Virus record (IMG/VR): IMGVR_UViG_3300042393_000573
Coordinates: 1-64,000 of that record
Length of the DNA: 64,000 nt
Source: an uncultured virus (IMG/VR IMGVR_UViG_3300042393_000573)
Taxonomy: Duplodnaviria; Heunggongvirae; Uroviricota; Caudoviricetes
Strand: one strand, 5' to 3'
The number at the start of each line of letters is the position of its first letter. Within the stretch, counting starts at the first letter, position 1. The notes below the pieces were generated by a model. That model was given only the letters and a program-made list of their open reading frames with translations. It did no database searches and was not told the origin of the DNA. Below, piece by piece: positions 23,793 to 52,115 of the stretch. The position numbers and the translations under genes were made by a program.

Positions 23793-24074
23793 ATGAATAA
23801 ATTTAAATGGAAAGATAATGCTTCTTGCTTAGACTATGATACAAATTTATTCTTTGAAAAGTATGAAGAAAGTGAGTCGTTAAGGCCAGCAATAGATGCA
23901 CTTTGTTCTTCGTGTCCAGTAAGAAAAGATTGTTTTTCTGTTGGGATTTCAGGCAAAGAGTGGGGTGTTTGGGGTGGAGTATTTTTAGAGAATGGTGAAA
24001 TATCAAAAGAGTTTGCCAGCCACAAAAACAAAGACGATTGGGGAATGACTTGGCAATCATTAACAATGGAGTAG
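23793..24074 (+). CDS. whiB: WhiB-family Fe-S transcription factor
   Basis: W..ASC...LFF...CSSCPV..C...GVWGG. Confidence 0.9.
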   Translation: MNKFKWKDNASCLDYDTNLFFEKYEESESLRPAIDALCSSCPVRKDCFSVGISGKEWGVWGGVFLENGEISKEFASHKNKDDWGMTWQSLTME

Positions 24075-30169: not shown

Positions 30170-30181
30170 ATTACTTAATTG

Positions 30182-31097: not shown

Positions 31098-31101
31098 ATG
31101 T

Positions 31102-31902: not shown

Positions 31903-31976
31903 ATTACAATTATACCATAGGCCTAAAGTCGGGAATATATTGAAGTATAGTCTAAAAATTGTGCTATAATAAAGTC

Positions 31977-32693: not shown

Positions 32694-32701
32694 TTTTATA
32701 A

Positions 32702-34153: not shown

Positions 34154-34228
34154 ATTATCTATTATATCAAAAATTAAAGTCTGTGTCAAATTGATAATTT
34201 TGACAGCGAATAATGATATAATGTAAAT

Positions 34229-34801
34229 ATGATACCTTTTAATTTAAATAATTTAACTCAAATTGGTGAAGACATATATGTATGTAAAAATTTTTTATCT
34301 AATAAAGATTTGTTAATCATAAATGATGAAATTAATTTAAAGAAAGAATTCTTGTTGGATACTAAAAATACTAGTAAAGAAATTAAAAGTCTTACCATTA
34401 TATATAATAAAATCAAACAAATAGTAAAAGATCCATATAATATTACAAATTCTAGCACCATGAATATATTAAGTGTAGGAGATACCTGGGGTCTACATGC
34501 GGACAATGGTGCCTTTTTAGATATAAGAAAGCAAAGTTTGCTTTTAAAAGAAGGGGAAGAGTTTATATTAAAAAATAATAACATTTTTGGTACTGTTGCC
34601 TATATAAACGATTTTGGTGGTGGAGAACTTAGATACCCAAACCAGTCAATTACTTATAAACCAGAGCCAGGTGATTTAGTTATTCATAGCGCAGAAGATC
34701 ATTGCACTCACGAAGTCCTTAAAGTTACATCGGGAGTTCGATATTCTTATTCAAATGGAATATATGAAAAAATAAAGGTTCCAAAGAATTTAGTTATTTA
34801 A
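34229..34801 (+). CDS. 2OG-Fe(II) oxygenase
   Basis: HAD..FGGGE..HEV..R. Confidence 0.85.
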   Translation: MIPFNLNNLTQIGEDIYVCKNFLSNKDLLIINDEINLKKEFLLDTKNTSKEIKSLTIIYNKIKQIVKDPYNITNSSTMNILSVGDTWGLHADNGAFLDIRKQSLLLKEGEEFILKNNNIFGTVAYINDFGGGELRYPNQSITYKPEPGDLVIHSAEDHCTHEVLKVTSGVRYSYSNGIYEKIKVPKNLVI

Positions 34802-35323
34802 ATCTTTTTTCCACGCATCTAAGTCTAGGCATGCTTCAGCATCTCTAGGTACCCATACTTTCTTTCCATCTTTCCATATAGGCCAGTAGCCTAGGGAACG
34901 CCAATCCATTTGAGCAATCTTAGGTTCTTTACTCAAAGTCAACTTGGCTTTCAAAGATATTTGTCATATAGTTATCTTCTCCTCTTGCTACCTTTGCAGC
35001 AAGCATACGCATGCCAAGAGCGTTGGTAACAGAATCTTGAATCATAATTGATTCAATAGACCTTGCAATCTCTTCTCGTAATGCCATTTCATCTACGCTC
35101 ATACTATTGCTCTACTTTATATGTCATTACAATATAACAAGCAATATACCCTGTAATAAGCGCTGGTATAAGAAATAGTGCGTGTATCATAATTCCTCCA
35201 ATAGTTTTACTTTATATATTTATTATACAGTACAAGTCTTGAGGTGTCAAGTCAGGCATAGAAAGTAGGGCTGATTTAATATAAAAGGTGTATAATAAAC
35301 CTATAATTCTTAGGAGGACTCAT

Positions 35324-36010
35324 ATGACAACATCTATTTATGATATTCCACTAAAATCGTGGGATGGGCAAGAAAATATGCTAAATTCCTATAAAGGCAA
35401 GGTAACAATGTTTATTAATGTTACTGCAGATTGTGGCAATGCCCCTCAATACGGCATCATAGAAATGCTATATCAAAAATACAAAGATCAAGGATTTGAA
35501 GTAGTTGCCATACCAACCAACGACTATTGTGGTCCAGGAATTACTTATGACCAGTATGAATGTGGGATTGATGGTCCAGAAGAGGCAAGAGATTATGCAA
35601 AAGAACTATACAATGTAACCTATGGGTTTTCTGAACTAGTTACATCTATGGTTGGTACATCAATCTCAAATCAAGCATTAAAAAAATTATATCCAGGTAG
35701 AACAGAATCCTTTCCAAGAAAACTGTTAGAGGGAGAAGATGTACATCCAATTTACCAAAACCTTGCAAAAAGTCTGCCAATGTTTGGAAATTTTGAAAAA
35801 TTCCTTGTTAATAAAAATGGCAAGGTTATTATAAGATATGCTAATTCTACTTTGATGGATGCTGCTACAAAAAATGGCTTTAAAGAAACAAGTTCAGGAG
35901 AAGACTTTAAGAATATATCAAATGCAATTGAAGAATTATTAGAAGATAAAGATATAACTTATTACACACACCCTGCTGGAACATTAGCGCCATATGCAAT
36001 AGTTCTCTAA
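35324..36010 (+). CDS. glutathione-peroxidase-like protein (paralog of 27373)
   Basis: INVTADCGNAPQYG, PTNDYCG, GNFEKFLV; SD AGGAGG. Confidence 0.8.
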   Translation: MTTSIYDIPLKSWDGQENMLNSYKGKVTMFINVTADCGNAPQYGIIEMLYQKYKDQGFEVVAIPTNDYCGPGITYDQYECGIDGPEEARDYAKELYNVTYGFSELVTSMVGTSISNQALKKLYPGRTESFPRKLLEGEDVHPIYQNLAKSLPMFGNFEKFLVNKNGKVIIRYANSTLMDAATKNGFKETSSGEDFKNISNAIEELLEDKDITYYTHPAGTLAPYAIVL

Positions 36011-36195
36011 GACTTCTTGTTATTTCTATAGTCTTTAATAAAAACTTCTAAGTCTTCCTGATACTCTTCAAATGTTTTTGAACATTTTGAACAAATAAGG
36101 GTCAGTCCACCATTTTCAAATAAATGTTTTTTTAAGTCACATGACTCTATATTTGCTTTCATATTTAGTATCTTCCAAAACAGTTATTATATTTT

Positions 36196-36417
36196 TTATT
36201 TGCCATGAGTTTTTATCCAAGTTCCTATCTTTCCTTTTTTAACTTTTTCCCTTAACATTTCTGCAAAGCCAGTTTCTACTTCAGATCCAAGGTATTCTTC
36301 TCCTGTTTCTAAATCAATTAGTTTCCATTTTCCAGGTGCTTTTGTATGTATAATTAAATCAACTGGAGTCTCAAATGAAATTACTTCTGATTCATCTTTA
36401 AGGATTCTTCTGTTCAT
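36196..36417 (-). CDS. hypothetical protein
   Basis: ORF track; TKAPGKWKLIDLETGEEY. Confidence 0.55.
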   Translation of the reverse strand: MNRRILKDESEVISFETPVDLIIHTKAPGKWKLIDLETGEEYLGSEVETGFAEMLREKVKKGKIGTWIKTHGK

Positions 36418-36612
36418 ATTATGAAATAAGACCCATAGACAAATGATTTAAGCAGACATCTGCAACTATATATTCGGCGTGATCTACTACCACATCGTAA
36501 TGAGTTGCGTCTTTATCGCAAAAAAAACATTTAGCATTGTTCATATAATAATTATATCATATCCAGAATTATCCAAGTAGGCTTGAAGTGTCAAGTCAGG
36601 TATAAGTTGTTT

Positions 36613-37329
36613 TTATTCTTCTAAAATAAAATTTTGTGGACTGTATAAATCCATAATATACTTGTTTATCTGCTTGAGACTTAGATCTGGTATTTTTAAA
36701 CTATAATCATTTCTAAATTTTGACCAAGAATTATATCTTTCAATTAACCGATATTCTAATGACCAAAACCATAAATTATTAAATTTTATATTATTACAGA
36801 TTTTCTCTATTTCCTGCTTGGTTGGCTGTGTTTCACCTTCATAATGATCAAAAATTGCCCAATCATAAGTCTTTGTATCTTTGTATAGTCCTATATCTTG
36901 AACAACTAATTTAATTTTTTCATGTAATTTGTTGTTTTCTAAAAATATATCTACAACATCTTGACTAAATTCAATTACTGTAACAGATTTAACTTCTGGT
37001 TTAGAGGCTATCCATTGAGCCAATACTCCAAAACCTAAACCAGACAATAAGACATCTCCATAACTTAAATCATATGAAGAATAAAGTTCATTAACTTCAT
37101 TTTTATTGTTCATGTCTAAAGCCATCCATTGTTTTTCTCCAATATATAATCTATAAACATCTTTGTATTCAATTATTTTTGCATTACCTTTAATTGATTG
37201 TTTTATAATAGGAAAAGGCAAATCTAAATGATCTAGCATATTCGGATTATCTTTTAGATTCATAACATTTATTTTTTCTCCTAGGTCAAAGTGAATCGTA
37301 TCGCAAGAAGCACACTTAAAATTGTTCAT
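36613..37329 (-). CDS. class I SAM-dependent methyltransferase / spermidine-synthase-like protein
   Basis: VLLSGLGFG..VTVIE..D..YD.AIFD. Confidence 0.7.
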   Translation of the reverse strand: MNNFKCASCDTIHFDLGEKINVMNLKDNPNMLDHLDLPFPIIKQSIKGNAKIIEYKDVYRLYIGEKQWMALDMNNKNEVNELYSSYDLSYGDVLLSGLGFGVLAQWIASKPEVKSVTVIEFSQDVVDIFLENNKLHEKIKLVVQDIGLYKDTKTYDWAIFDHYEGETQPTKQEIEKICNNIKFNNLWFWSLEYRLIERYNSWSKFRNDYSLKIPDLSLKQINKYIMDLYSPQNFILEE

Positions 37330-37384
37330 ATACTAAGTATAACATATCTAGAATTATCCACGGCATATCAAGTATAATAGACCT

Positions 37385-37699
37385 ATGACCCTACTCTATA
37401 TACTCTATAGCCCACGACATAAGGCTATCAAGATAGGTATATCAGATGTAAGCGGAAGAAGGTTTGCAAGCCATAGGACCAAGGGTTGGATATTGATTAA
37501 GTATTGGTGGTTTTCCGAACGGGATAAAGCAAGAACAGTAGAAACCCTAGTACTAAGAACACTAAGGGCAAAGCATGGTTCTTTCCTGGATAAGGCAGAT
37601 ATGCCACAAGGAGGTTATACAGAGACCTTTGATGCATCCAAGATAACTCGTAGGGGTTTGATCCGTATGGTTAATAAGGCAGCAAAAGATTCATCGTAA
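37385..37699 (+). CDS. GIY-YIG/T5orf172-like nuclease
   Basis: LYILY..IKIGIS..RR..E..GYTETF. Confidence 0.6.
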   Translation: MTLLYILYSPRHKAIKIGISDVSGRRFASHRTKGWILIKYWWFSERDKARTVETLVLRTLRAKHGSFLDKADMPQGGYTETFDASKITRRGLIRMVNKAAKDSS

Positions 37700-38451
37700 T
37701 CTTTTATTAGCAGCACAAGTAAGACATACAAAAGGCTCGTCATCTTGTTTGATATATAATTGATCACATTTGCTACAGGCTATTTTATATGGCTCCCACT
37801 TAGCAAACTTACTATATGATGACTCAAACCTGTCCATTGATCTATTATATCATTACTCAAAGTCTGTTTGTGTTTCAAAGATATCCACAGGCTGTCTATC
37901 ATCATCCATAGCCCCACAGACAGCACAGGTTACCTGGCCATCAAGGTCTAATTGGTAGTCGCACCCATACTTTGTACATGTCATATATACATCATACCAT
38001 TCGGCGAAAAAATTGTCAAGTCTTTAAAGTTCGGCGAAAATAGAGGTAGTAAACCTCTCTATGCCCTACACGGGCACTATTGGTGAGTAGCCTTCATATG
38101 CCGAGCAAGGGAATCATGAGCAAAGATACCCCATCTTAGATCCCATTCCTTCTTACAAATCGGACAGATTAATATCCTCATCACTCTCCCATATAACTAA
38201 ACATTTTGTACACTGTATCCCTGGCTCACGCATATACCAGGTGTGATCGCATTTACCAACCATTTAAACACTCATTCCTGCTGTGGTATAGTCTAATCTT
38301 GGTCAATATTTTGCGGGACGGACCAGAAATATCATCCTTACAAGTACTACACCTATAAGACCATTCTCCAGTAAAGAAGTCATGCACATAGCCCTTAGCG
38401 TTAGCATATTTCTTGGCTACAAAGGTTTGGAATGGATCAGGTATCTCCATG

Positions 38452-38736
38452 TTAATCATTACGGTCCCAAACTAACTTGGTAAAACTCCTCCAAGACAAC
38501 TGTTCTTTGTCTAAAGCCTTCCAGTGCCTATGTGATTGAACATATACTGCTGCATATGCAAGGGCAGAGAAGATAAAACCATATTGCTCAGTAGTAATAG
38601 CGTATATCATCCATAGGGTCTCATTGAATAGAAGAATATACCAGCCGAAGAAACTCTTACGGCCAACAAAATATATACCTGCGACCCCAATGACAGCGAG
38701 GACCCATGAGGCATAGTCTTGCATAAATTGGTTCAT
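38452..38736 (-). CDS. PnuC-like small membrane protein
   Basis: three hydrophobic segments, GW..NE.LW.IYA..QYGF. Confidence 0.5.
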   Translation of the reverse strand: MNQFMQDYASWVLAVIGVAGIYFVGRKSFFGWYILLFNETLWMIYAITTEQYGFIFSALAYAAVYVQSHRHWKALDKEQLSWRSFTKLVWDRND

Positions 38737-38792
38737 ATATTGATTGTATCAGAAATTGCGGGGGATGTCAAGAAAGGATCGTAATCCCTATA

Positions 38793-39392
38793 CTAGTAAG
38801 TATTCCCTATAGCGTCAGAATCTGGAAAATATTGAAATACTAAAGATGCTCTAGGTTTGTTATTAATAACCTGATGTACCACCCCAGCAGGCACATATAC
38901 CACATCTCCTGGTTCAAGGACTACGGAGTCATACTCGGCACCTTCAATGCTTATTTTCTCCATATCCTCTTCTTTAACATTTTTATAGAATCTCCACTCA
39001 ATGGTACCAACACAGTGCCAGGAGATAACAGCGTGGTCATCACTATGGATCCAGTATTCCTGCTCATTGCCTAGGAAGTTAATAATACTTTTAATTGAAC
39101 TGATTTTATTTTTTGTCAAACCTTTTATAAGGCTTTGTGCCTCTAATGACTTATCAAATAGTCTAGTGGTTTTGTCTTCTATAGCATTAAAGATGATGGG
39201 GTCAAACTTATTATAAACCATAATGTGGTCTGTAAGGTATCTACGGTCTGGATTATTTTTATTTTTGTCTTTGTCTCTATTGTAGTTATAATCAAAGTTT
39301 TCTATGAAATCTGACCAGTTAGGCACATCTTTGCATAGCCCCCTAAATAGGGCATATGTCTTGTTGTTGGAGGCTTCTATAATTTTATCCAT
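38793..39392 (-). CDS. JmjC/cupin oxygenase
   Basis: HSD..LEPGDVVYVPAGVVH. Confidence 0.8.
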   Translation of the reverse strand: MDKIIEASNNKTYALFRGLCKDVPNWSDFIENFDYNYNRDKDKNKNNPDRRYLTDHIMVYNKFDPIIFNAIEDKTTRLFDKSLEAQSLIKGLTKNKISSIKSIINFLGNEQEYWIHSDDHAVISWHCVGTIEWRFYKNVKEEDMEKISIEGAEYDSVVLEPGDVVYVPAGVVHQVINNKPRASLVFQYFPDSDAIGNTY

Positions 39393-39622
39393 GTATATAT
39401 CATACCATAGGGGGAAGTATCTGGTGTATCGTAATCTTTATTTACCGTCGCATTTTTGACATTGTTTTGTAACATCTTCTCTACCATACTGGGTTTGATA
39501 CATACCACCACATTCATAGCATAGGACATTGATCATAGGGTTTGTATAGCCTAAAGAGAATTTGTTATATGATGATTCGAATCTGTCCATTGGTCTATTT
39601 TATCACATTATGGTTAACAGAG

Positions 39623-39811
39623 TTATACATAGTCTGGATGGTCTAATGGAGTAGGAGCAGTGATAAGACACTTACATTCTACACATTGGGCATCATCCAA
39701 AAGATACATCTGAATCTCATAAGTTTGTGGATCAAACTCTACAGTAACCCTCAAGAGTGTAGAGCCACAACAAGGACATGCAGGTGTTGGGATGCCTCTG
39801 ATATCTAACAT
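39623..39811 (-). CDS. small zinc-ribbon protein
   Basis: CPCCG..CVEC. Confidence 0.6.
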   Translation of the reverse strand: MLDIRGIPTPACPCCGSTLLRVTVEFDPQTYEIQMYLLDDAQCVECKCLITAPTPLDHPDYV

Positions 39812-39864
39812 ATATCTATCATATCATAGAGTTATCCACAGGTCAATTATGGTACAATATTTGT

Positions 39865-40413
39865 ATGTCAATAACAAGAATAAATAACATTTTTTCAAAA
39901 AAAGAAATAGATCATATAAAGAAAATAATATCAGAAAGCCCAACAATTATTGATAATGAGTTAGGCAGGATTCAGGTTCGTGATTTAGAAAGCCTACTAC
40001 TCCCAGAGACTATTGAGAAACTAAAGGAGATTGGCAAACCTTTAGAGATGGGCTCTGCCATGTCTGTAGAGTATAGCCTTTTATATGGAAACCCTGAACT
40101 AAATCCTCATTTTGATGGAGACACTAATGACCTGATTGTTAGTATACAGTTAGAGTCTAATACCGTTTGGGATATAGGGTTAAACCTAGAAACTTATAAG
40201 TTAGAGGATAACTGTGCCTTAATCTTTAATGCAAATAAAGAAATTCATTGGAGGGTTTTGAAGCATTTTAAAGAAGGAGAGTATATTAGGATGATGTTTG
40301 TAAGGTTTTTAAATCCAGAGAATTTGTCAGATTACTCTCACCTTTCAGTCCCAAATAATCCAATGCTTGATGAGGCATATAGGTTTAGAGATAGCCTAGG
40401 CTTTATTTCATAA
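39865..40413 (+). CDS. 2OG-Fe(II) oxygenase (HWR type)
   Basis: PHFD...IHWR. Confidence 0.7.
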   Translation: MSITRINNIFSKKEIDHIKKIISESPTIIDNELGRIQVRDLESLLLPETIEKLKEIGKPLEMGSAMSVEYSLLYGNPELNPHFDGDTNDLIVSIQLESNTVWDIGLNLETYKLEDNCALIFNANKEIHWRVLKHFKEGEYIRMMFVRFLNPENLSDYSHLSVPNNPMLDEAYRFRDSLGFIS

Positions 40414-40415
40414 AG

Positions 40416-40436
40416 TTATCCACAGGTTTATCCACA
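40416..40436 (+). promoter_or_regulatory. two DnaA boxes
   Basis: TTATCCACA at 40416 and 40428. Confidence 0.7.
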
Positions 40437-40474
40437 GATTAATCTTACTGATTATCTTATTAGACACCCTAGAA

Positions 40475-40500
40475 GTGGAGTGAAGTGGAGGATAGTGGAG
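40475..40500 (+). promoter_or_regulatory. MraZ-box-like triple direct repeat
   Basis: GTGGAG-N4-GTGGAG-N4-GTGGAG. Confidence 0.5.
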
Positions 40501-41105
40501 AATGGGGCGCTTTTAACGATGCGTTCGTAATGTCTTGGGGGCCCCAAACCTCAAACCTTCAAACCTCATATACCAAACCTTACAAACTATCTCGCAGCCG
40601 ATGATACCACAGATATAATGGTTTGTCAAACCCTAAAACCATATAAAAAAATCCCCAGAAACCAGGGAGAAATTTGCACATATCGTAATGTTTTTTTAAC
40701 AAACCTTTATGTTATTTAAAGAAACCAGGAGATAATGGTTTGTTATTCTATAGGGGTTTGTTTTGTTCTTCTTGATCCCCGCCGTTGCCGTCAGTGATAG
40801 GATTATCAGTCATCGCTGGGGCGGGGGACTTAGGAAAGAAAGCCTTAAGAGTTACAACACTATACAACATACCACATATAGCACCAAAGTCTTTATTAAA
40901 TATATCACCATCACTTGGGCTATCATGGCGATGGGAGGTTTGCTTATAAAGGTTTGCAAAATGTCTTGGACTCATATATAAAGTATACACCTAGTTTGGG
41001 GAAACAAAGGTTTGGATCGTAATGTTCTGGAGGGGGAAAGATTTGGAGGTTCGTAATGTCTTTTGGCTATAAGGTTTGATGGTTTGTTATTGAATGATAA
41101 TGCAC

Positions 41106-44184: not shown

Positions 44185-44226
44185 AATTAAGGAAAGCAGT
44201 TTTAAATCATGCTTAGGATTTTTTTG

Positions 44227-45243
44227 TTATGCGAGTTGCATTACATTCTGTACAACTTTTAGCAAACGATTCTTTTCTGCATTGATAGCAGGGTCAAATC
44301 CTGATGCTGATGCAAGGATTGATTCGTTAGAACCACCACGAGCAGAACGATACCAGTCAAGGCGCTCAGTTAGTGCATTGAAAGCACCCCATGCACTACC
44401 AGCAATCATACCATTGAACTCGCCTGTGTAAATATCATTGATTGAATCAATTTTATTCTCCCACTTTTTTAGCGAACCCTTAGCATCTGTTTCTGGTTTT
44501 GCATATGCAGCCAATACAATATCATTGAATTGCTTAGCATTGACTTCTTTTTCAATCATAGCCTTAGCCATAATATCAAATGCGTCCATGTACTTGTTAG
44601 CCATTCCAAGAGTCTCACGAGCAACTGCAACCTTACCGCTTGCAGTCTGTGTATGACGAATCTTGAATGATTGCTTAACGCCATTCTTTTTCTTGATTGA
44701 GCCAAGAGCAAGATTGAGAGTGTTAGCGCACACAACACGAACAGGTGTGATGCTTGCTTGAATAGCGATTGAGCCATCATGTGATGTGTTGATAAGTAAA
44801 TAAGTCTTTACCTTATCGGCAACACCGCTAGGGTCTAGGACAGTCTCACGCTCTAGTGCCAACGCACCGAACACAACACGGCCACCCTTAATTGAGCCAG
44901 CAGTCTCCCAACGGCCTCCGCCGTCTAGAATGTTGTCACCGAATGAGAATAAATCTTCATTCTGCATTACATGGTAACGCTCACCAACGACACCAAGAAT
45001 GTCGGTCTGTGTTGTATCTGTAGGGTTAGTACGCAATACATATTGATAATTCTTATCTGATGATAAGTGGGTCGGTACTGTTAAATCTTCAAGACGAACA
45101 TTCCAATTAGAAAGATTAGCAAGCGCCAACATTTCTGATGTAGTTTTTTCTTCTGTGAATACAGTACCCAATCCATGCCAAGCAGGTTCACGGAATGATG
45201 CAAATGATGCAACGCCGTTTTGTGTTTCTAGGTCATGTGCCAT
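44227..45243 (-). CDS. DUF932-family phage/plasmid protein
   Basis: MAH..PAWHGLG, ETAGS..GGR, SHDGS, TPVRVVCANTL. Confidence 0.88.
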   Translation of the reverse strand: MAHDLETQNGVASFASFREPAWHGLGTVFTEEKTTSEMLALANLSNWNVRLEDLTVPTHLSSDKNYQYVLRTNPTDTTQTDILGVVGERYHVMQNEDLFSFGDNILDGGGRWETAGSIKGGRVVFGALALERETVLDPSGVADKVKTYLLINTSHDGSIAIQASITPVRVVCANTLNLALGSIKKKNGVKQSFKIRHTQTASGKVAVARETLGMANKYMDAFDIMAKAMIEKEVNAKQFNDIVLAAYAKPETDAKGSLKKWENKIDSINDIYTGEFNGMIAGSAWGAFNALTERLDWYRSARGGSNESILASASGFDPAINAEKNRLLKVVQNVMQLA

Positions 45244-45273: not shown

Positions 45274-45295
45274 AGTATACATGGGTGGACTGACA
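45274..45295 (-). promoter_or_regulatory. RecA-NDp/PafBC-type promoter (also has TTGACT -35)
   Basis: TGTCAG-N10-TATACT. Confidence 0.65.
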
Positions 45296-45494
45296 AAGTC
45301 AAATCGTATAAGTATACATGGGGCAATTCGGACATTTCTTAAAGGTGATCTTAATCACAGCCTGTGGATAAACCTGTGGATAACCCCCACGTGCAAATTA
45401 AAATAAAAAGTGAACAGTTTTACATCGTGTTCAGGATGTTTCGCCACTTATTTATACTGGCTGTACGGTGGCCAGTTGTATTAGTAGCCCCCTA

Positions 45495-45923
45495 CTAAAT
45501 ATCTATTCTATCAACACTCGATGATAACCAAGAAATATTATCTGAGTCATATTGCACGGTATCAAAATCAATATCGTGAATTACATTCTGTGCAGACTCT
45601 TCATCACGAGCATTAACAGTAACTGAATAAAGAACTGTAACTTCCAATTCAAACTCTGTTGTTAATTCAAAGCCCATGATTTCAGCAATTTGTTCTGCTT
45701 GAGATTCAGTGATGTCTTCATTACTTAATTCACTAAGGGTCCAGTCCTTCATTCCCTCAACCATACGGTTACGGTCTGCTGAATCGGAATAAGAGCGCTG
45801 GGTTACTTTTTGAGTGTGCTCTTCAAGTTGAGCAATACGCTCATCTTTTATTTTAATCTGAGATAAAAGGAATTCTTGCGTTGTGTTTGGTATTACTGTT
45901 ACTGATTCTTCTGTTTGGTCCAT
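45495..45923 (-). CDS. acidic hypothetical protein
   Basis: start moved to the ATG after purine-rich SD AGAAAGAGG. Confidence 0.65.
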   Translation of the reverse strand: MDQTEESVTVIPNTTQEFLLSQIKIKDERIAQLEEHTQKVTQRSYSDSADRNRMVEGMKDWTLSELSNEDITESQAEQIAEIMGFELTTEFELEVTVLYSVTVNARDEESAQNVIHDIDFDTVQYDSDNISWLSSSVDRIDI

Positions 45924-45954
45924 GGGGGCCTCTTTCTGTAGTTGGTTTAATTTA

Positions 45955-45976
45955 ATTGTACAGGGCACCACTGACA
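45955..45976 (-). promoter_or_regulatory. RecA-NDp/PafBC-type promoter (also has TTGACA -35)
   Basis: TGTCAG-N10-TACAAT. Confidence 0.65.
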
Positions 45977-46131
45977 TTTGTCAAGTCCCCTTAAGGGTGA
46001 GCCTTTTTGGATCGTGCTCAGGATGTCTGCTTCTTTAGGCCTGCAGGAGCCTTGCTCTATAGTATTTCTATTATCGCCCTAATCAGCCTGGCGAAAGTTG
46101 AGGGAGGTTTTTACGCCTCCCCCAATTTCAT

Positions 46132-46554
46132 TTATAGGTACTGTGCGATTGCGTTGTAGGTTGAGGTATTAACTGTTTCCTCATCTGTCATCTTTAACAG
46201 ACGAATTGCGTTTGTTATTTCTTTCTTTGACTCACGATAAGTGCTAATGTGAATTGTCTCAAAGTCCTTCTCAGGCTCTGTTGGCATTTCTTTTTCTGTA
46301 ACTGTTAAGTCAAAGTCAATGTTAAGATTGTTTGACCAATGACGATAGTTAGTACGGAAGTTTTCTGCCTTTGAGATGTTTGCTACGGCATAGGCACAAA
46401 GTGCTTCCTGCCATGCCTTGCGAGCAATTTCATACTTTGCTTCTTTTGCTTCTTGTGTTGCGTAGTCTGTTTCTAGTGTAGCAAGTGCTTGCTCTAGTCC
46501 TGCGATTACTCGAACTGTTGGGATTTTTACATTTATTGCTTTTGCTCTAGCCAT
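46132..46554 (-). CDS. hypothetical protein
   Basis: ORF track; AGAAAAGAG leader. Confidence 0.7.
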   Translation of the reverse strand: MARAKAINVKIPTVRVIAGLEQALATLETDYATQEAKEAKYEIARKAWQEALCAYAVANISKAENFRTNYRHWSNNLNIDFDLTVTEKEMPTEPEKDFETIHISTYRESKKEITNAIRLLKMTDEETVNTSTYNAIAQYL

Positions 46555-46636
46555 CTGTTTATCTCTTTTCTTTTATGGGGTATTAGTTGGGGGAGGTTGA
46601 GCAGTTTGTATTCCTACTCAGGAATTAGTAATTAGA

Positions 46637-46801
46637 TTACTTAGCCGTCCAAGTTGTGTAACGGGCTGAACCATTTACATCTAACTTAACTCGCACATTA
46701 CCATTTGGTAGTGGGTTAATTTCTTGGATAACTCCTGTTACCTTTGACTTCTGTGTCGTGAAAGTATCGCCGACCTTGTATGTTGCTGTTGCTACTGACA
46801 T
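46637..46801 (-). CDS. small beta-rich protein (not in ORF track)
   Basis: MSVATATYKVGDTFTTQKSKVTG...; own promoter. Confidence 0.65.
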   Translation of the reverse strand: MSVATATYKVGDTFTTQKSKVTGVIQEINPLPNGNVRVKLDVNGSARYTTWTAK

Positions 46802-46907
46802 TGTTTTTCTCTTTTCTGTTTAGGGGTTGTTATTTAGTTATACCTAAGTATAACATTTTGGTTGTAGAAATGTCAAATCGAAACTTAACATTTCTCACAT
46901 TGTGAGA

Positions 46908-47078
46908 TTACTTAGAGGTCTTAACCATAGCAAGGCGTTGTGCGCCATTTGCCAAGATGAGGCTAACTCTAGTAACCTTATTAGACATTGGTGTAAATCC
47001 TGCGATACGACCTGTAACGCCTGTCTTGCTTGTTGTGAATAAATCACCAATTTGGTAAGTGTATCCGTGTAGTGTCAT
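46908..47078 (-). CDS. small beta-rich protein, paralog of 46637 (not in ORF track)
   Basis: MTLHGYTYQIGDLFTTSKTGVTG... Confidence 0.65.
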   Translation of the reverse strand: MTLHGYTYQIGDLFTTSKTGVTGRIAGFTPMSNKVTRVSLILANGAQRLAMVKTSK

Positions 47079-47317
47079 TTGGGTCTTGCCTTTCTGTTGT
47101 GGGGGTTAATTGCTTATAGTATAATTTTAGCATAAAAATGTCATAAATACCAATCCAGCGGGGGATTTGCGGTGTGTCCTTAATCACATCTTAAAAGCCT
47201 ATCATAAACTTGACAAACCTGGATCTTTGCGACGTGCACCCTTTTATTTTATTGATGGAAAAATAAAAGAAGCAACAACCAAAATAAAAGTATAACTTGA
47301 GTACTACGCATGTTATC

Positions 47318-48058
47318 TCATTTCTTACTCGATGAAAAAATTATGTCACTCTTAGAGTATACACAAAGTGAGCAAGAAACGCAAGCGCTTCCATTTGTTG
47401 AGATAAGTGGAATCTGTTTATTATTCTCAGGACACTTAGCAGCAGGCTTACCAATCATTTCTTTTATGTCTGCCTTACCAATTGCAAAATTCTTAGCAAG
47501 GTATGCCATGCGTACACCACTGTTAATTTTTAAATCAACGGCAGTTTTTACATTCTCACTATCAGCAGAAAAATAAAGACTAAGATTATCAATGTCCTTA
47601 AGTAGGAGGGCTGCAGATTTTACACGAGTGTATACCCAAAATTGAATATCAGGATTAAGTTTGATTACATCGGACCATGCAGTGGTATAAGTATCATTAA
47701 AGAAGTCACCGTCCCAGTGAATGCGGAATAGCATGGGGGCGTCTTTCTTTATACAATCAGCCTTGAAGTCTGCAATCATCTCAGCAATGAGATTAAGCAT
47801 AGTTAAATAGTCTGCGTCTTTTAGCAGGGCCCAATTGTGTAGCAGGTTAACTTTTACGGTTGGGAAGATCTTTTCGAGTTTTCCTGCATAGCATACGGAT
47901 TCACATACACTCGTGGCACCAGGACACGAGAAAGCCTTTCCAGCAGGGAGGCCAAAGGTATTTGCGATACTTGCTTGTTTTCCATTAGGTGTGACGGCAT
48001 TAGCAACCTTTCTATCTTTAGAGCGTTTTAGTTTAAGTGTATTAGTAGTCAAGGCCAA
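47318..48058 (-). CDS. GP88-family protein
   Basis: FGLPAG..SCPGAT..C...CYA, FRIHWDGDF, FWVYTR. Confidence 0.75.
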   Translation of the reverse strand: MALTTNTLKLKRSKDRKVANAVTPNGKQASIANTFGLPAGKAFSCPGATSVCESVCYAGKLEKIFPTVKVNLLHNWALLKDADYLTMLNLIAEMIADFKADCIKKDAPMLFRIHWDGDFFNDTYTTAWSDVIKLNPDIQFWVYTRVKSAALLLKDIDNLSLYFSADSENVKTAVDLKINSGVRMAYLAKNFAIGKADIKEMIGKPAAKCPENNKQIPLISTNGSACVSCSLCVYSKSDIIFSSSKK

Positions 48059-48245
48059 GACTCATTTCTAGAGCAATGTCTTCGTTATAGGTTGCGGACA
48101 TTTCTTCTAGTAAACAATGAGTGCATTTTTCTTCATATGCGTCTACCGCATTTTCTTTACATTCAGGGCAGGTTGTTGCATAGTATTCATCATAGAATTC
48201 ATCTGCGATATTTCCCATGGGGCTATTCTCCTTCTTGTTGTTTTA

Positions 48246-48267
48246 ATTGTAGCATTTCGGACTGACA
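48246..48267 (-). promoter_or_regulatory. RecA-NDp/PafBC-type promoter
   Basis: TGTCAG-N10-TACAAT. Confidence 0.65.
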
Positions 48268-48410
48268 TTTCCTACGGTTATAGGATTTCTTAGAGGGCAC
48301 GGCAGAGGCCGCATTGCTACGGCGTAATTCCATAAGCCTGCGTAATTCCTCTGGTGTTTTCTTCATAAATTAATCTTAGCATACATGGGAAAAAATGTCA
48401 ATATCTTAAA

Positions 48411-48426
48411 TGTGATAAATCTCACA
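48411..48426. promoter_or_regulatory. CRP-family box
   Basis: TGTGA-N6-TCACA. Confidence 0.6.
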
Positions 48427-48478
48427 CAGGCGCCACGTGCATTTTTATGCGGGGAAGCACATAAAAATACTTTAGTGA

Positions 48479-49409
48479 TTAGTCTTCTTCAAAGAATACA
48501 TACCACTCAATAGTTTCATCATCAAATAAATAAATGTGACCCTCTTCGTTAAAATCATTTCTAGTATAAATATTAAATCCATCTTCATTTTCTGTAATGG
48601 TTTCAATAGTTACATATTCATCATCAACCTTAATTAGATCGCCTTCTATAAGTTGAGATGGTTTTAAGTTATCAGCAAATCTAAGTTCCATATTGTTTAT
48701 TGTATCAGACATTTAGTCCTCCTCTGGTAGCCAAAAAGATAAATGGTGTTGCTCAATTATTGCATCTGCTGGTGCAGTAACCTGCCCACGCCACAACACT
48801 CCTTGAGGCAAATCTATCTCTCTGCGGTAGTCCTCATCATAGTATGCGTCAATAGCATCTATGCAAGGTTGCACCATAGATAGCGGTACTGGAGGATAGT
48901 GATTACCCTGCAAGTGATATGCTAATTGTGTTTCTAAATCAAGTACGGTATCTTGAATACCGAGTGCAGTTACGCTTCCCATTATTTTGTTACGACCTTT
49001 CGTCCTTCACGATAGAAAGTGCGGGTGTGCATCTTTCCACTTGGTTCAGATAAATTAACTGTTGAATATTCATCAGCAAATCCCCAATCAACAATTTCGT
49101 TGAAAGCATTAACTGCACTTAGTGCATCAGAGTAACGACCCGTCCAATGAACGGGGTTACTATCATACGATACTGTTACTGCGTATAGGTATTCGTTATT
49201 CATTACTCACCAACCTTTACTGCTACTGTTGCAAACTTACTTCGCAAAGTGCGGTCATAGACTTCAACGACATACGCCTCAGTATTTTCTCCATACCAAA
49301 TTGCAGGGCGTGGAGAGGCAGAAATAATTTCTCCCTCAAAGTGACGATTACGGGAACGATAGTTTTTACCAATTAGTAAATCCTGTATTGTGTATAGTTT
49401 AGTAGCCAT
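48479..49409 (-). CDS. operon of four small hypothetical ORFs (48479-48712, 48713-48982, 48982-49203, 49203-49409)
   Basis: abutting or TAATG-coupled ORFs. Confidence 0.65.
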
Positions 49410-49443
49410 TGGGCAACCTCTTTCTTTTTTTGTTATTAACTTT

Positions 49444-49465
49444 ATCCTACCATAGGGGTCTGACA
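49444..49465 (-). promoter_or_regulatory. RecA-NDp/PafBC-type promoter
   Basis: TGTCAG-N10-TAGGAT. Confidence 0.65.
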
Positions 49466-49567
49466 AATCTTGCTTATTTATTTTTTCTTACTATGTAAGT
49501 CTAGCCTATTAGTCATAAATTATCAACCTACTAGCGAGTAGTCTTAAATAATGAGACGCTCAGAGAG

Positions 49568-49616
49568 TGTGAGAAAAATCACATGCTACTTAAAGTTATA
49601 CACAGCCTGTGGATAA
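49568..49616. promoter_or_regulatory. CRP box plus two DnaA boxes
   Basis: TGTGA-N6-TCACA at 49568; TTATACACA at 49596; TGTGGATAA at 49608. Confidence 0.65.
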
Positions 49617-49687
49617 GTCACACGTGCATTTTTTTTGTTAAAAGATCGAGCAGTTTTAAATCATGCTCAGGATAATTTATTATAGGA

Positions 49688-49981
49688 TTAGTATTCCATA
49701 TCGCTAAGAAGATAATCCCAAAACAAAACAGTAAAAACTGCTTGCACTATTGCAATAATTAAACCTGCAGTTGCAAGACCTTTACCTCTGTTCCAGTTTT
49801 CACCATTTCTTTTAAATTGGCTAAGTGCTATTGGACTAAAGATAAAAGCCATTGGCCAAATAGTAAGTGAAAGAACAAAGCCCGAAATTGCAAATCCATT
49901 CCATGGCAAGAGAGTTGCAGTTGCAGTAGTTGTAACTGTTGCTGGGTTTGTTGATGTAGTTGTCGTTGTTGTTGTTGTCAT
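49688..49981 (-). CDS. DUF4190-like membrane protein with Thr-rich N-terminus
   Basis: NGFAISGFVLS..IALSQ..GKGLATAGLII. Confidence 0.7.
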   Translation of the reverse strand: MTTTTTTTTSTNPATVTTTATATLLPWNGFAISGFVLSLTIWPMAFIFSPIALSQFKRNGENWNRGKGLATAGLIIAIVQAVFTVLFWDYLLSDMEY

Positions 49982-50734
49982 TACACTAACTCCATTTCCT
50001 TATGGCAAGCATTGAAAAACTTTACATGGTCAAATCTTTCGTTATCGCTTTCAAACATTAGCGAAAACTCATCGACCAAATCTTCAAAAACTAATTGGTC
50101 ACCGATTAAATCTTTAAATCCGTGCAGGATTTCTGCGGTTGCTACATAGTCTTTGCGTGTCATCATTATTTGACCACCTTAAGAATTGCATATGAACCAT
50201 TAGCATTTAATTCATCAATGGCGGGTTGAATGCGGGGAGCAAGTAACTCTTTTAGCATTCCTTCAAGCATTACAATTTGCATTGACTCTGAAAGTCTAAG
50301 CAGTTGCATTCCTACGGGGTGAGTCTCGTCTACCTCTGTGATAAACTTTAGGTTGTGTTCGATTGATACTGTCATTTTTTTATTTCCTATTCTTTAGTTT
50401 GATTCGGGTGTATTGAATAAATTAAGGTCTTGCTCCATGCCAAAATCGCATACGCAAGATTCTACATCGAAATTATCTTCATCGCCAAAAAAGATTAAAC
50501 CTGTTGCGTGGCATTCTTCGCAAGGGATAGAGAGTACTGAGTTTATCATTAGATAAGTGCCTTTCCTCTAAGTGTTCCACGAATACCTAGCATGTCGCAA
50601 GATACTTTAACAGATACGCCAACAGGTAACGCATTAGGATAGTTAGAGATAAAATCTGCAACCTGTCCTTTAGTTGATAGGGGGATATTTTTTACGGAAC
50701 CTGAATAGGTTTCGAGTTTTATAGTGTAAGTCAT
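49981..50734 (-). CDS. operon of small hypothetical ORFs (49981-50166, 50166-50375, 50549-50734)
   Basis: TAATG coupling, SD motifs. Confidence 0.6.
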
Positions 50735-50767
50735 TTAGTGACTACCTTTCGTTTGTTTGTTAATATA

Positions 50768-50789
50768 AGTATAACAGGGGGGTCTGACA
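50768..50789 (-). promoter_or_regulatory. RecA-NDp/PafBC-type promoter
   Basis: TGTCAG-N10-TATACT. Confidence 0.65.
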
Positions 50790-51653
50790 AATTGGGCACT
50801 TATTTGCTTAGGCTCACTGTGATACTCGTCACATTTATTTGCTAAGGCTCATTGCTTTATTAGTCATTATTTAATTGTTATACTAGAAGTATAGCAAAGA
50901 AATGTCAAAAAAGCAAATCGACACGCCGTAAATGGGGGAAATAATTGTGTGACCTTAAACACATTAGTTATACACACCCCCTGTGGATAACCGCCACGTG
51001 CAAAAATCGCAGGGTATTTATCCATGCGATCTTTACTACTAGAGTGAATACAAAAAGCCAAACACAATCATTGCAATTAAAACTAATAACAATTTATTTA
51101 TCCTCGATTTCATTTAGTAATTCCCAAAGTACTGGCTCTAACTCTAACGCTACTGCGTCAAGTTTTTCTTGAAGTGTTTTCATTCGCTTATCCCCAAATC
51201 TTTTATATCTGCACAATAAACATTATCTTTATTCATTCCGTATTTTAATTGAAACTCAAATACATCAATGGCCTCATCATAGGACTCTGCCTCTACTGTT
51301 ACATAGACATTAAACTCATAGTTATTCATTACTTAACCTCCTTGTATAGAAAATCCCAAGCCTTACGGCATAACACGATAGAGTTACAGTTATCGCAACA
51401 GATAACACCATGAGGGTTTAGGTCATAGTCATACTGGTCGATTGTGGTAGTTACCGCACCACATACGGATTTGATAGGTACATAGGTACTCATTTATTTA
51501 CTCCTTCGAATAAGTCTTTACATTTGTTAGGGTTAGTCATGTATGACTGCCCCTCATGGTATAGCGCAGGGGCTAATACCACCTGACCACATGGGCATAG
51601 GTTCATCATGCCCTTTGGGTAATTGCTAGTGGTAGCAATTCTAGTCCAAATAC

Positions 51654-51836
51654 TCATTTAGTAACCGACCAATCTGACCACTCTGGTAGTCGTTCCATTC
51701 CATAGTCTAGCCAAAAGCGGTCTATATTCTGTTCGCAATCTTGGCAGAATGTGTATTGCACATCGGCTACCTCTGAGATAGCGGTGAAATAAGGGTTATG
51801 CTCTACGCATACTGTTGTTTTATCTAATGTAGTCAT
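51654..51836 (-). CDS. small zinc-binding protein
   Basis: CVEH..CQDC; SD AAAGGTGG. Confidence 0.6.
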   Translation of the reverse strand: MTTLDKTTVCVEHNPYFTAISEVADVQYTFCQDCEQNIDRFWLDYGMERLPEWSDWSVTK

Positions 51837-51892
51837 TTATGACCACCTTTCTTTAGCGGATTTCTTTACCGCTTGTGTTTCTTTATACTGTA

Positions 51893-52115
51893 AGTATAGC
51901 AGGGGGGTCTGACAAATTGAGGGGTGCAAAACGGACATTAGGGACATTATGAGGTGTATCACATGAGAGGTAGGTCACATTAGTAGGGGGAATTATAACG
52001 ATTGCGTAACAATAGTGAGGTTATCGGTGTGTCGATTTGACACGTGCCGTGTGACGGACATCACATGCGACACGCCGTGCTAGGACTTGACTTTTTGACA
52101 TTTCTCTGTTATACT
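51893..52115. promoter_or_regulatory. divergent promoter region at the strand switch
   Basis: minus strand: TGTCAG-N10-TATACT (51893-51914); plus strand: TTGACT-N17-TATACT (52087-52115); CRP box at 52050; GACAC sites at 52025 and 52068. Confidence 0.7.

What the first reader, a model, noticed from the sequence alone, without database searches (positions are those of the whole stretch)
45274..51914. Six phage promoters match the actinobacterial PafBC (RecA-NDp) DNA-damage promoter
Seen: six minus-strand promoters read TGTCAG-exactly 10 nt-TAnnnT (45274-45295, 45955-45976, 48246-48267, 49444-49465, 50768-50789, 51893-51914), each about 30-60 nt upstream of a gene start. Two also have a normal -35 element; the other four lack a clear one. 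Established: the mycobacterial RecA-independent promoter TGTCRG-N10-TAnnnT is activated by the WYL-domain regulator PafBC, which responds to single-stranded nucleic acid. Inference: the phage has placed its putative early genes under the host DNA-damage activator, so injected or damaged DNA could switch them on.
Basis: partly seen in the sequence, partly recalled or inferred. Interest (0 to 1): 0.88.

Follow-up and report, generated by a model that had tools for sequence, protein, structure and literature searches.

The report
Phage promoters mimicking PafBC DNA-damage promoters
A widespread group of uncultured phages of actinobacteria drives a block of small, probably early genes from promoters built exactly like the host promoters that the DNA-damage activator PafBC switches on, which suggests that the phage borrows the host's alarm for single-stranded DNA.

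Summary
All six minus-strand TGTCAG-N10-TAnnnT sites exist at the stated coordinates, 27-56 nt before start codons. The window holds 9 matches against 0.94 expected.

In 80 metagenomic relatives the motif occurs 627 times on the gene strand at exactly N10, against 3-66 at other spacings. In complete relatives (108-118 kb) it is confined to one 8-10 kb block on one strand.

The phage has low GC (about 37%) and encodes WhiB. It is kin to Streptomyces Stanwilliamsviridae phages. Neither it nor five complete relatives carry a WYL (PafBC-like) gene, and those relatives also lack a sigma region-4 match.

The architecture equals the published PafBC "sigma adaptation" promoter: tGTCgg-N10-tA-N3-T, with a -26 element and no -35. 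A CC/GG preference just after the hexamer is shared with bacterial sites. In the sampled Actinomycetota genomes, the motif goes with adjacent WYL gene pairs. A phage contig with no detectable protein similarity carries the same promoters.

Not shown: the host's identity, PafBC binding, induction by damage, and early timing. Two cultured relatives (Jay2Jay, BillNye) lack the motif. I found no paper linking PafBC promoters to phages.

Verdict: a real promoter class, most likely PafBC-dependent (about 0.6). It is a new variant of a known kind.

The parts
51893..51914 (-). Promoter 1: TGTCAG-N10-TATACT with TGc before the -10 and no -35. It is the first of the leftward block. The ATG at 51836 lies 56 nt downstream.
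50768..50789 (-). Promoter 2: TGTCAG ACCCCCC TGt TATACT. The ATG at 50734 lies 33 nt downstream. A canonical promoter lies about 120 nt upstream of it.
49444..49465 (-). Promoter 3: TGTCAG-N10-TAGGAT with TGg. The ATG at 49409 lies 34 nt downstream.
48246..48267 (-). Promoter 4: TGTCAG-N10-TACAAT with TGc. The ATG at 48218 lies 27 nt downstream. A canonical promoter at 48373-48401 lies upstream.
45955..45984 (-). Promoter 5, composite: TGTCAG-N10-TACAAT shares its -10 with TTGACA at an 18-nt spacing. The ATG at 45923 lies 31 nt downstream.
45274..45302 (-). Promoter 6, composite: TGTCAG-N10-TATACT shares its -10 with TTGACT at a 17-nt spacing. It drives the DUF932 gene (ATG at 45243, 30 nt downstream). 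The site is conserved before this gene in 76 of 80 relatives.
44227..45243 (-). DUF932 protein gene (PF06067, phrog_1221). Its homologue in Streptomyces phage Jay2Jay has 2 matching places in that record, the listed one about 1.6-2.6 kb from one end.
45495..51836 (-). Leftward block of about 20 small genes served by promoters 1-5. In PHROGs, 18 of 18 small proteins tested from this block have no family. Exceptions by Pfam: GP88 family at 47318-48058 and a DUF4190 membrane protein at 49688-49981.
50880..50908 (-). Canonical promoter TTGACA-17-TAGTAT, in tandem upstream of promoter 2. Further canonical ones lie at 48373-48401 and 46847-46876 (-), and a near-canonical one (TTGACT) at 52087-52115 (+, divergent).
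45363..45395 (-). TGCACGTG followed by two perfect DnaA boxes (TTATCCACA), upstream of promoter 6. The same module lies at 50982-51002 and 49608-49628. TGCACGTG alone lies at 48434-48441.
23793..24074 (+). WhiB-like gene (93 aa, CxxCxxxxxC), a marker of phages of Actinobacteria.

Best explanation
The six sites are promoters of a class used throughout this phage family. Each has a sigma-A type -10 (TAnnnT, usually preceded by TGn) and a non-palindromic TGTCAG exactly 10 nt upstream, at about -28 to -23, where most sites have no -35. This is the architecture of the actinobacterial PafBC-dependent ('RecA-NDp', sigma adaptation) promoter. The phage is an actinophage that encodes WhiB but no WYL/PafBC-like protein. 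Five complete relatives also have no sigma region-4 match. The most likely mechanism is therefore that the host's own PafBC, once it has bound single-stranded DNA, sits between sigma-A region 4 and the TGTCAG element. The housekeeping polymerase can then start about 7 nt after the -10. This fires at least six short operons of orphan genes, plus the DUF932 and GP88 genes, in one leftward block of about 7 kb. Single-stranded DNA made during injection, nuclease attack or phage replication would be the trigger. Canonical TTGACA promoters, in tandem or overlapping, give some operons an activator-independent input. Shown here: the motif, its exact spacing, its conservation across diverged relatives, its restriction to one block, the absence of a phage WYL gene, its presence in a phage contig with no detectable similarity, and the co-occurrence of the motif with PafBC-like gene pairs in bacteria. 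Inferred: PafBC binding, the single-stranded DNA trigger, early timing, and which bacterium is the host.
For: (1) Architecture. PMC8635444 (passages) gives tGTCgg(N10)tA(N3)T, with the 5' part at -23 to -28, no -35, a GTC triplet strictly conserved across actinobacteria, and a non-palindromic site. The phage sites read TGTCAG-N10-TAnnnT.
(2) Spacing. In 80 relatives (1.34 Mb) there are 627 gene-strand matches at N10, against 3-66 at N6-N15 and 61 on the other strand. Anchored on TGTCAG alone, 446 of 624 unique sites have TAnnnT at N10. Anchored on TGnTAnnnT alone, the hexamer 7 nt upstream is TGTCAG in 259 of 2818 cases, and the next commonest hexamer occurs 24 times.
(3) Selection rather than copying. 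Before the DUF932 gene, 76 of 80 loci keep the site while the spacer varies; there are 54 unique contexts. G000 and the complete relative G004 align over only 38% of G000 at 76% identity.
(4) One block. In five complete relatives the sites cluster in 8-10 kb on one strand, for example G004 with 10 forward and 0 reverse at 69.2-76.7 kb.
(5) No -35 in 4 of 6 window sites. In the family, 345 of 439 sites lack a match of 5/6 or better to TTGACA at 16-18 nt. The same phages also use canonical TTGACA-N17/18 promoters (197 and 138 unique sites).
(6) Actinobacterial host. WhiB is in the window and in 5 of 5 complete relatives. DnaE is 60% and DUF932 54% identical to Streptomyces phage proteins.
(7) No phage activator of this kind. 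WYL is found in 0 of 5 complete relatives and 0 in G000. Sigma70_r4 is found in 0 of 5.
(8) Shared flank. Positions 7-8 after the T of TGTCAG are CC or GG in 269 of 414 phage sites, in a genome of about 37% GC. They are CC or GG in 27 of 27 bacterial recA-upstream sites and in 15 of 19 bacterial TGTCAG sites.
(9) The motif tracks PafBC-like pairs. The six bacterial genomes picked for TGTCAG excess or a TGTCAG site before recA all have two adjacent WYL genes. Of 30 small low-GC genomes, only G345 has the pair, and only G345 has GTC-N2-N10-TAnnnT before recA, 1 of the 29 with a recA hit.
(10) A second phage lineage. Contig G698 has no tblastx hit at E<=1e-3 to G000 or G004 and a different portal. 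It carries 5 such sites in 1.8 kb before small genes.
Against: The host is unknown, so its pafBC could not be checked. The nearest cultured relatives lack the motif, although Streptomyces-sized genomes are rich in it: Jay2Jay has 2 matches against 5 in the control and BillNye has 0. Many small low-GC Actinomycetota lack WYL genes (25 of 30). Thirty genomes of 1.0-1.1 Mb and 33% GC show no clear site before recA. A streamlined host might therefore have no PafBC. About 62% of phage sites have TGn (257 of 414) and 21% have a good -35 (94 of 439), so many could fire without an activator. The phage element is stricter (AG after GTC: 424 sites; GG: 18) than bacterial sites, where these two bases vary. 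G698 is only 20% complete and encodes its own sigma factor. No expression data were available.
Confidence: 0.6

Rival explanations
1. TGTCAG is read by a different factor: a phage-encoded adaptor made from the canonical promoters or injected with the DNA (as MotA/AsiA is in T4), or another host regulator. The likeness to the PafBC motif would then be convergent.
For: The motif is specific to this lineage and absent from the cultured relatives Jay2Jay and BillNye. The block is full of orphan small proteins that could include a DNA-binding adaptor: 18 of 18 have no PHROG family. The phage encodes a WhiB-like protein, and such proteins are recalled to bind sigma-A region 4. In the distant relative G697, WhiB lies just downstream of a TGTCAG site. 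The hexamer is stricter than in bacterial regulons.
Against: G698 shares no detectable protein with G000 or G004, yet has the same promoters with the same flanks. The first operon of the block already depends on a TGTCAG promoter without a -35. The CC/GG flank is shared with bacterial PafBC-type sites. No WYL or sigma region-4 gene was found. The phage WhiB has no basic tail or AT-hook.
Confidence: 0.2
2. The sites are activator-independent sigma-A promoters. Either they are extended -10 promoters in which TGTCAG is an operator or spacer signal, or TTGTCA is a -35 lying 17 nt from a second, downstream -10 (TAnAnT).
For: TGn precedes the -10 in 6 of 6 window sites and in 257 of 414 family sites. 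TAnnnT also occurs at N16 in 145 of 624 sites, which places TTGTCA at 17 nt; the scan lists these pairings for 5 of the six window sites at 17 nt and the sixth at 16 nt. The site overlaps the polymerase footprint, as a shut-off repressor's operator would.
Against: The N10 hexamer is far better conserved than the N16 one (446 against 145). The base before TGTCAG is A as often as T (45% and 53%), so half the sites would read ATGTCA. The invariant final G lies outside that hexamer. The same phages use perfect TTGACA elsewhere. A non-palindromic element locked to 1-nt precision relative to the -10 is what a promoter element looks like, not an operator.
Confidence: 0.13
3. Chance, or recent duplication of one promoter cassette with no shared regulatory meaning.
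For: Two sites (50768 and 51893) share TGTCAGACCCCCCTG.
Against: 0 of 100 shuffles reach the observed count. Spacers and flanks differ among sites and among relatives while the two elements stay fixed. There are hundreds of independent sites.
Confidence: 0.02

Closest known systems
PafBC-dependent ('RecA-NDp') promoters of Mycobacterium, Streptomyces and other Actinobacteria (sigma adaptation)
   Same: A GTC-containing hexamer at -28 to -23, exactly 10 nt before a TAnnnT -10. Usually no -35, and non-palindromic. The hexamer is followed by CC/GG in the bacterial sites examined here.
   Different: The sites lie on a phage genome, clustered 6-15 per genome in one block before orphan genes rather than before repair genes. 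The hexamer is almost invariant TGTCAG. The sequence context is AT-rich and TGn is frequent. PafBC dependence is not shown.
T4 middle promoters (MotA box plus AsiA, 'sigma appropriation')
   Same: A phage promoter class in which the -35 is replaced by an activator-specific element at a fixed distance from a normal -10. PMC8635444 itself makes this comparison for PafBC.
   Different: In T4 the activator and co-activator are phage-encoded and remodel sigma region 4. Here no candidate phage activator was recognised, and the element equals a host regulon's motif.
LexA/SOS-controlled promoters of temperate phages and prophage induction (recalled knowledge)
   Same: Phage gene expression is wired to the host's DNA-damage signal.
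   Different: Those act through loss of a repressor, in temperate phages, and decide on induction. Here the control would be positive, through a single-stranded-DNA-sensing WYL activator. No integrase or repressor family was among the Pfam and PHROGs matches to the window ORFs scanned.
Host-takeover modules in terminal repeats of SPO1- and T5-like phages (recalled), and the terminal repeat of Streptomyces cluster BE phages
   Same: A block of many small orphan genes in short operons, each with its own promoter and terminator. The DUF932 homologue in Jay2Jay has 2 matching places in that record, the listed one about 1.6-2.6 kb from one end.
   Different: Those modules use canonical strong sigma-A promoters. 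Jay2Jay has no TGTCAG-N10 excess.

Membership tests
PafBC-dependent (RecA-NDp / sigma adaptation) promoter | Upstream element containing the conserved GTC triplet (tGTCgg / TGTCRG) at about -28 to -23 | tested here: met
   6 of 6 sites read TGTCAG. In the family, GTC-AG occurs 424 times and GTC-GG 18 times, against 41 and 2 on the opposite strand. The motif definition comes from PMC8635444.
PafBC-dependent (RecA-NDp / sigma adaptation) promoter | Exactly 10 nt between the hexamer and a sigma-A -10 (TAnnnT) | tested here: met
   There are 627 sites at N10 against 3-66 at N6-N15. Of 624 unique TGTCAG sites, 446 have TAnnnT at N10.
PafBC-dependent (RecA-NDp / sigma adaptation) promoter | No -35 consensus | tested here: met
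   4 of 6 window sites lack one. In the family, 345 of 439 lack a match of 5/6 or better to TTGACA at 16-18 nt. The remaining 21% are composite promoters.
PafBC-dependent (RecA-NDp / sigma adaptation) promoter | The organism that transcribes it encodes PafB and PafC (adjacent wHTH-WYL-WCX genes) | not testable with these tools
   The host is unknown. Indirect evidence: WhiB points to an actinobacterial host. Adjacent WYL pairs occur in 6 of 6 bacterial genomes with the motif, including low-GC genomes of 1.5-1.6 Mb (G345, and G006), but in only 1 of 30 small low-GC genomes overall.
PafBC-dependent (RecA-NDp / sigma adaptation) promoter | PafBC occupancy, PafBC-dependent transcription, and induction by DNA damage or single-stranded DNA | not testable with these tools
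   Needs reporters, in vitro transcription or ChIP.
Phage of Actinobacteria (actinophage) | Encodes a WhiB-like protein. PMC10202952 (whole text read) says WhiB-like factors are exclusive to Actinobacteriota and have been suggested as a key indicator of actinophages. | tested here: met
   PF02467 matches at 23808-23981, and the ORF 23793-24074 matches WhiB PHROGs. It is present in 5 of 5 complete relatives.
Stanwilliamsviridae (Streptomyces phages such as Jay2Jay and BillNye) | Shared core genes at family-level similarity | tested here: inconclusive
   DnaE-like polymerase is 60% identical and DUF932 54% identical. Megablast finds no nucleotide match. GC is about 37%. No proteome-wide comparison was made.

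The most novel reading that the evidence does not exclude
At least two phage lineages with no detectable sequence similarity, both infecting uncultured Actinobacteria, have copied the host's PafBC '-26 element' and so hijack sigma adaptation. The single-stranded DNA made when the phage genome enters, is attacked or replicates activates host PafBC, which then fires the phage's host-takeover or counter-defence genes. The 6-15 strong sites per genome may also draw PafBC away from the host's repair and defence promoters. This would be the first case of a phage using a WYL-domain DNA-damage activator as its own transcription factor.
Probability: 0.5. Interest if true: 0.85.

Novelty: new variant of a known kind. 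Interest (0 to 1): 0.72.

Why it matters
PafBC and sigma adaptation are known only as a bacterial DNA-damage response. If phages use the same element, three things follow. It would be a new way for a virus to take over the housekeeping polymerase without encoding any factor. It would link infection timing to single-stranded DNA sensing. It would also give a sequence signature (TGTCAG-N10-TAnnnT clusters) that predicts a PafBC-bearing actinobacterial host for hundreds of uncultured phage genomes. The idea is directly testable with existing in vitro PafBC-polymerase assays and pafBC deletion strains of laboratory actinobacteria. Literature searches for RecA-NDp with phage, PafBC with bacteriophage, WYL/actinobacteriophage/promoter, and PafBC/phage/early genes returned no paper describing phage promoters of this type. 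One paper on pafBC and mycobacteriophage resistance (Rafique 2025) was seen only as a citation and could not be read.

Tried and rejected
- Host through an auxiliary gene. The AhpC protein searched against genome contigs gave mostly Burkholderiales at 59-68% identity and a few Actinomycetota MAGs, so it says nothing about the host. It was useful only as a way into Actinomycetota genomes (G006).
- Host through shared DNA. A 20-kb stretch of the phage compared with five candidate genomes gave only that AhpC gene at 70% identity.
- Names of bacterial clades are withheld for genomes reached this way, so candidate hosts could be described only by size, GC, WYL genes and motif.
- recA promoters as a guide. 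In the order of G006 they read TGTC(AC/GT)ACCCC at N10, not TGTCAG. The two bases after GTC vary among bacteria, and this did not identify the host.
- A palindrome TATAC-N5-GTATA overlapping three promoters in the window looked like an operator. It is rare in the family: 8 of 437 TGTCAG promoters and 7 of 331 canonical ones. I dropped it as a general feature.
- The reading 'TTGTCA as -35 plus a second -10' was considered and ranked low.
- Megablast of the block against GenBank phages gave no match.
No expression evidence could therefore be obtained.
- No structure prediction or complex prediction was run. The question concerns DNA elements, and none of the orphan proteins was singled out as a candidate.

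Full report
**Observation.** One search finds TGTCAG-N10-TAnnnT at all six stated minus-strand positions. The window holds 9 matches against 0.94 expected (sd 1.04, largest 4), and 0 of 100 shuffles reach 9. Relaxing A to R adds nothing. The whole record (G000, an IMG/VR virus contig of 72,334 bases, 66% complete) has 2 forward and 7 reverse matches, and none for the reversed control. Each of the six sites is followed, after 56, 33, 34, 27, 31 and 30 nt, by an ATG that opens an ORF behind a purine-rich ribosome-binding stretch. All six carry TGn before the -10. Two share their -10 with a -35 at 17-18 nt (TTGACA at 45979-45984, TTGACT at 45297-45302). Four have none.

**What the genome is.**
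- GC is 31-43% along the window, which at first argues against an actinobacterial phage.
- The proteins say otherwise. The DnaE-like polymerase is 60% identical to those of Streptomyces phages BillNye and Circinus.
- The DUF932 protein behind promoter 6 is 54% identical to a protein of Streptomyces cluster BE-type phages (family Stanwilliamsviridae). In Jay2Jay the match lies 1.6-2.6 kb from one end and occurs at two places in the record.
- The window also encodes a GP88-family protein, a DUF4190 protein and a WhiB-like protein at 23793-24074.
- WhiB is present in 5 of 5 complete relatives. PMC10202952 (whole text read) states that WhiB-like factors are exclusive to Actinobacteriota and have been suggested as a key indicator of actinophages.
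- Megablast to GenBank phages finds nothing.
- The phage belongs to a large uncultured group: 354 IMG/VR stretches encode a relative of the DUF932 protein. The best 80 are 88-100% identical, on contigs of up to 118 kb.

**Is the motif a real, selected element?**
- In those 80 loci (1,344,481 bases, oriented by the gene), TGTC[AG]G-Nx-TAnnnT occurs 627 times at N10 on the gene strand. It occurs 5, 11, 12, 16, 3, 35, 7, 5 and 66 times at N6-N9 and N11-N15, and 61 times at N10 on the other strand.
- Anchoring on TGTCAG alone: 624 unique gene-strand contexts, against 190 on the other strand. Of these, 446 have TAnnnT at N10, 145 at N16 and at most 71 at any other spacing.
- Anchoring on TGnTAnnnT alone: the hexamer 7 nt upstream is TGTCAG in 259 of 2818 cases, and the next commonest hexamer occurs 24 times.
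- After GTC the two bases are AG in 424 unique sites (41 on the opposite strand) and GG in 18 (2 on the opposite strand). All other pairs are at background.
- The profile of 428 unique cores is A-W-W-TGTCAG-(T/A/C)-S-S-...-T-G-n-TAnAMT.
- Before the DUF932 gene, 76 of 80 loci keep the site while the 10-nt spacer varies; there are 54 unique contexts.
- G000 and the complete relative G004 align over only 38% of G000 at 76% identity, so the conservation is not simply recent common descent.
- In five complete relatives (108-118 kb, CheckV 99-100%) the sites form one cluster of 8-10 kb on one strand. G004, for example, has 10 forward and 0 reverse at 69.2-76.7 kb. Controls are 0-2.

**A second promoter class in the same phages.** TTGACA on the gene strand is followed by TAnnnT at N17 in 197 unique contexts and at N18 in 138. 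In the window such canonical promoters, mostly with TGn, serve the auxiliary-gene region at 29-41 kb. They also lie in tandem about 120-135 nt upstream of promoters 2 and 4. The polymerase these phages use therefore reads an ordinary -35/-10 pair, and the TGTCAG class is a separate geometry. Only 94 of 439 unique TGTCAG sites have a match of 5/6 or better to TTGACA at 17-18 nt.

**Comparison with the known promoter.**
- PMC8635444 (passages) gives the PafBC in vivo motif as tGTCgg(N10)tA(N3)T.
- Its 3' part is the SigA -10 and its 5' part lies at -23 to -28 (the '-26 element'). There is no -35.
- The GTC triplet is strictly conserved across actinobacteria and is read by two arginines of PafB. 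PafBC sits between DNA and sigma region 4.
- PMC6789036 (passages) calls the site RecA-NDp and non-palindromic.
- PMC11804915 (title and abstract in the listing) shows that single-stranded DNA triggers PafBC.
- PMC5087735 (passages) documents RecA-NDp promoters in Streptomyces.
- The phage element matches on hexamer, spacing, -10, lack of -35 and asymmetry.

**Tests that separate a host factor from a phage factor.**
1. There is no WYL domain gene in G000 or in five complete relatives, and none in the Pfam scan of 96 window ORFs. There is no sigma region 4 in the five relatives.
2. The flank is shared. Positions 7-8 (counting from the T of TGTCAG) are CC or GG in 269 of 414 unique phage sites, although the genome has about 37% GC. 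In bacteria they are CC or GG in 27 of 27 recA-upstream sites of one order and in 15 of 19 TGTCAG sites of three small genomes. A and T are almost excluded at position 7 in all three sets.
3. In bacteria the motif goes with PafBC-like genes.
   - In a sample of 401 Actinomycetota genomes, TGTCAG-N10-TAnnnT greatly exceeds the reversed control in 7-10 Mb genomes (for example G349, 73 against 0) and in some small ones: G579 21 against 0, G531 17 against 1, G345 13 against 2, G614 8 against 0.
   - These four, plus G132 and G086 (which have TGTCAG sites directly before recA), all have two adjacent WYL genes (6 of 6).
   - Of 30 small low-GC genomes, only G345 has such a pair, 4 have a single WYL gene and 25 have none.
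   - Only G345 has GTC-N2-N10-TAnnnT before recA, that is 1 of the 29 with a recA hit.
   - In G345, TGTCAG sites precede an AddB-N (AdnB-like) gene and a DUF763 gene.
4. The promoter type occurs outside this phage family. Most are relatives.
   - G697 (17 kb, 43% GC, 11 sites against 0 in the control) is distant kin. Its DUF932 is 60-70% identical, and it has a WhiB gene directly behind one site.
   - G698 (30 kb, 20% complete, 5 sites in 1.8 kb before small genes) has a different portal and terminase and a sigma factor. It has no tblastx hit at E<=1e-3 to G000 or to the complete relative G004. Its portal finds nothing in five complete relatives, though that search had no positive control.

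**Results against the reading.**
- Jay2Jay (2 matches against 5 in the control) and BillNye (0) lack the motif, so it is not a trait of the whole phage group.
- The host is unknown, and clade names were withheld.
- Many streamlined low-GC Actinomycetota have no WYL gene. Thirty genomes of 1.0-1.1 Mb and 33% GC show no convincing site before recA.
- recA promoters in the order of G006 read TGTCAC or TGTCGT rather than TGTCAG (28 of 30 loci have a TGTC-NN-N10-TAnnnT site). The phage's strict AG is therefore not explained.
- With TGn in 62% of sites and a -35 in 21%, part of the class may work without any activator.
- There are no expression data. 'Early' is inferred from the block's make-up: about 20 small genes, 18 of 18 tested without a PHROG family. 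It is also inferred from the near-terminal, twice-matched position of the homologous gene in Jay2Jay.

**Conclusion.** The six sites are genuine members of a family-wide promoter class. Their anatomy equals the PafBC/sigma-adaptation promoter. Dependence on the host's PafBC is the best-supported mechanism (about 0.6). A different factor that reads TGTCAG (about 0.2) and activator-independent promoters (about 0.13) remain open. Four literature searches found no description of phage promoters of this type. One possibly relevant paper (Rafique 2025, pafBC and mycobacteriophage resistance) was seen only as a citation.

**Unpublished genomes.** The samples include unpublished genomes (G060, G301, G283, G438, G488, G687, G536, G371, G343, G637, G403, G621, G644, G409). 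No individual claim here rests on them, and G644 was left out of the counts.

Noticed in passing
window 45363-45395, 49608-49628, 50982-51002 (-); 39832-39840, 40416-40436 (+): G000 holds seven perfect DnaA boxes (TTATCCACA) against about 0.55 expected. The four on the minus strand are each preceded by TGCACGTG and sit after an operon end, upstream of a TGTCAG promoter. In 80 relatives there are 163 and 233 boxes on the two strands against about 5 expected per strand. TGCACGTG-N3-8-TTATCCACA occurs 23 times on the gene strand and 0 on the other. The median distance to the next TGTCAG promoter is 106 nt. Possible roles are DnaA titration, DnaA-dependent control, or an origin.
   Followed up: partly
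window 29336-40629 (-) and elsewhere: A second, canonical promoter class, TTGACA-17/18-(TGn)TAnnnT, serves the auxiliary-gene region and lies in tandem with some TGTCAG promoters. In the family there are 197 unique sites at N17 and 138 at N18.
   Followed up: partly
window 16572-16600 (+): A seventh composite site lies in the structural region: TTGACA-17-TATACT with TGTCAG at N10 from the same -10, just before the ORF at 16607. It may be real or chance.
   Followed up: no
window 19156-39392: A large set of redox and oxygenase auxiliary genes. It includes an AhpC/TSA gene with an adjacent CMD (AhpD-like) gene (28221-29311), two glutathione peroxidase domains, at least seven 2OG-Fe(II) oxygenases and JmjC/cupin proteins. 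The nearest bacterial AhpC homologues are mostly Burkholderiales.
   Followed up: partly
L237, L247, L236 (genomes G531, G579): In small high-GC actinobacterial genomes with a PafBC-like gene pair, TGTCAG-N10-TAnnnT sites lie directly before a type I methylase (HsdM), a Cas9-like protein and a DUF2779 protein, as well as before ordinary genes. This suggests that defence genes may belong to PafBC-type regulons.
   Followed up: no
window 45303-45345 (-) and the same place in relatives: A conserved element ATGTCCRnATTGYCC..TGnTWWACT lies about 40 nt upstream of promoter 6. It looks like a degenerate copy of the promoter with a 12-nt spacing.
   Followed up: no
window 44195-44217, 45412-45435, 49648-49671 (-): The motif CCTRAGCAYGATKTAAAACTGYT recurs just after operon ends. 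It is a short hairpin (GAGCA...TGCTC) without a T run. It was seen by eye.
   Followed up: no
window 50879, 51884, 52110: The palindrome TATAC-N5-GTATA overlaps three promoters at the start of the block. It is rare in relatives: 8 of 437 TGTCAG promoters and 7 of 331 canonical ones.
   Followed up: yes
L449 14371-15453 (-) and L450 593-8566 (-) (contig G698): The unrelated phage contig that carries the same promoter class encodes a sigma factor (phrog_5767) fused to a zinc-finger or endonuclease VII-like end, and an ORF of about 2650 aa.
   Followed up: no
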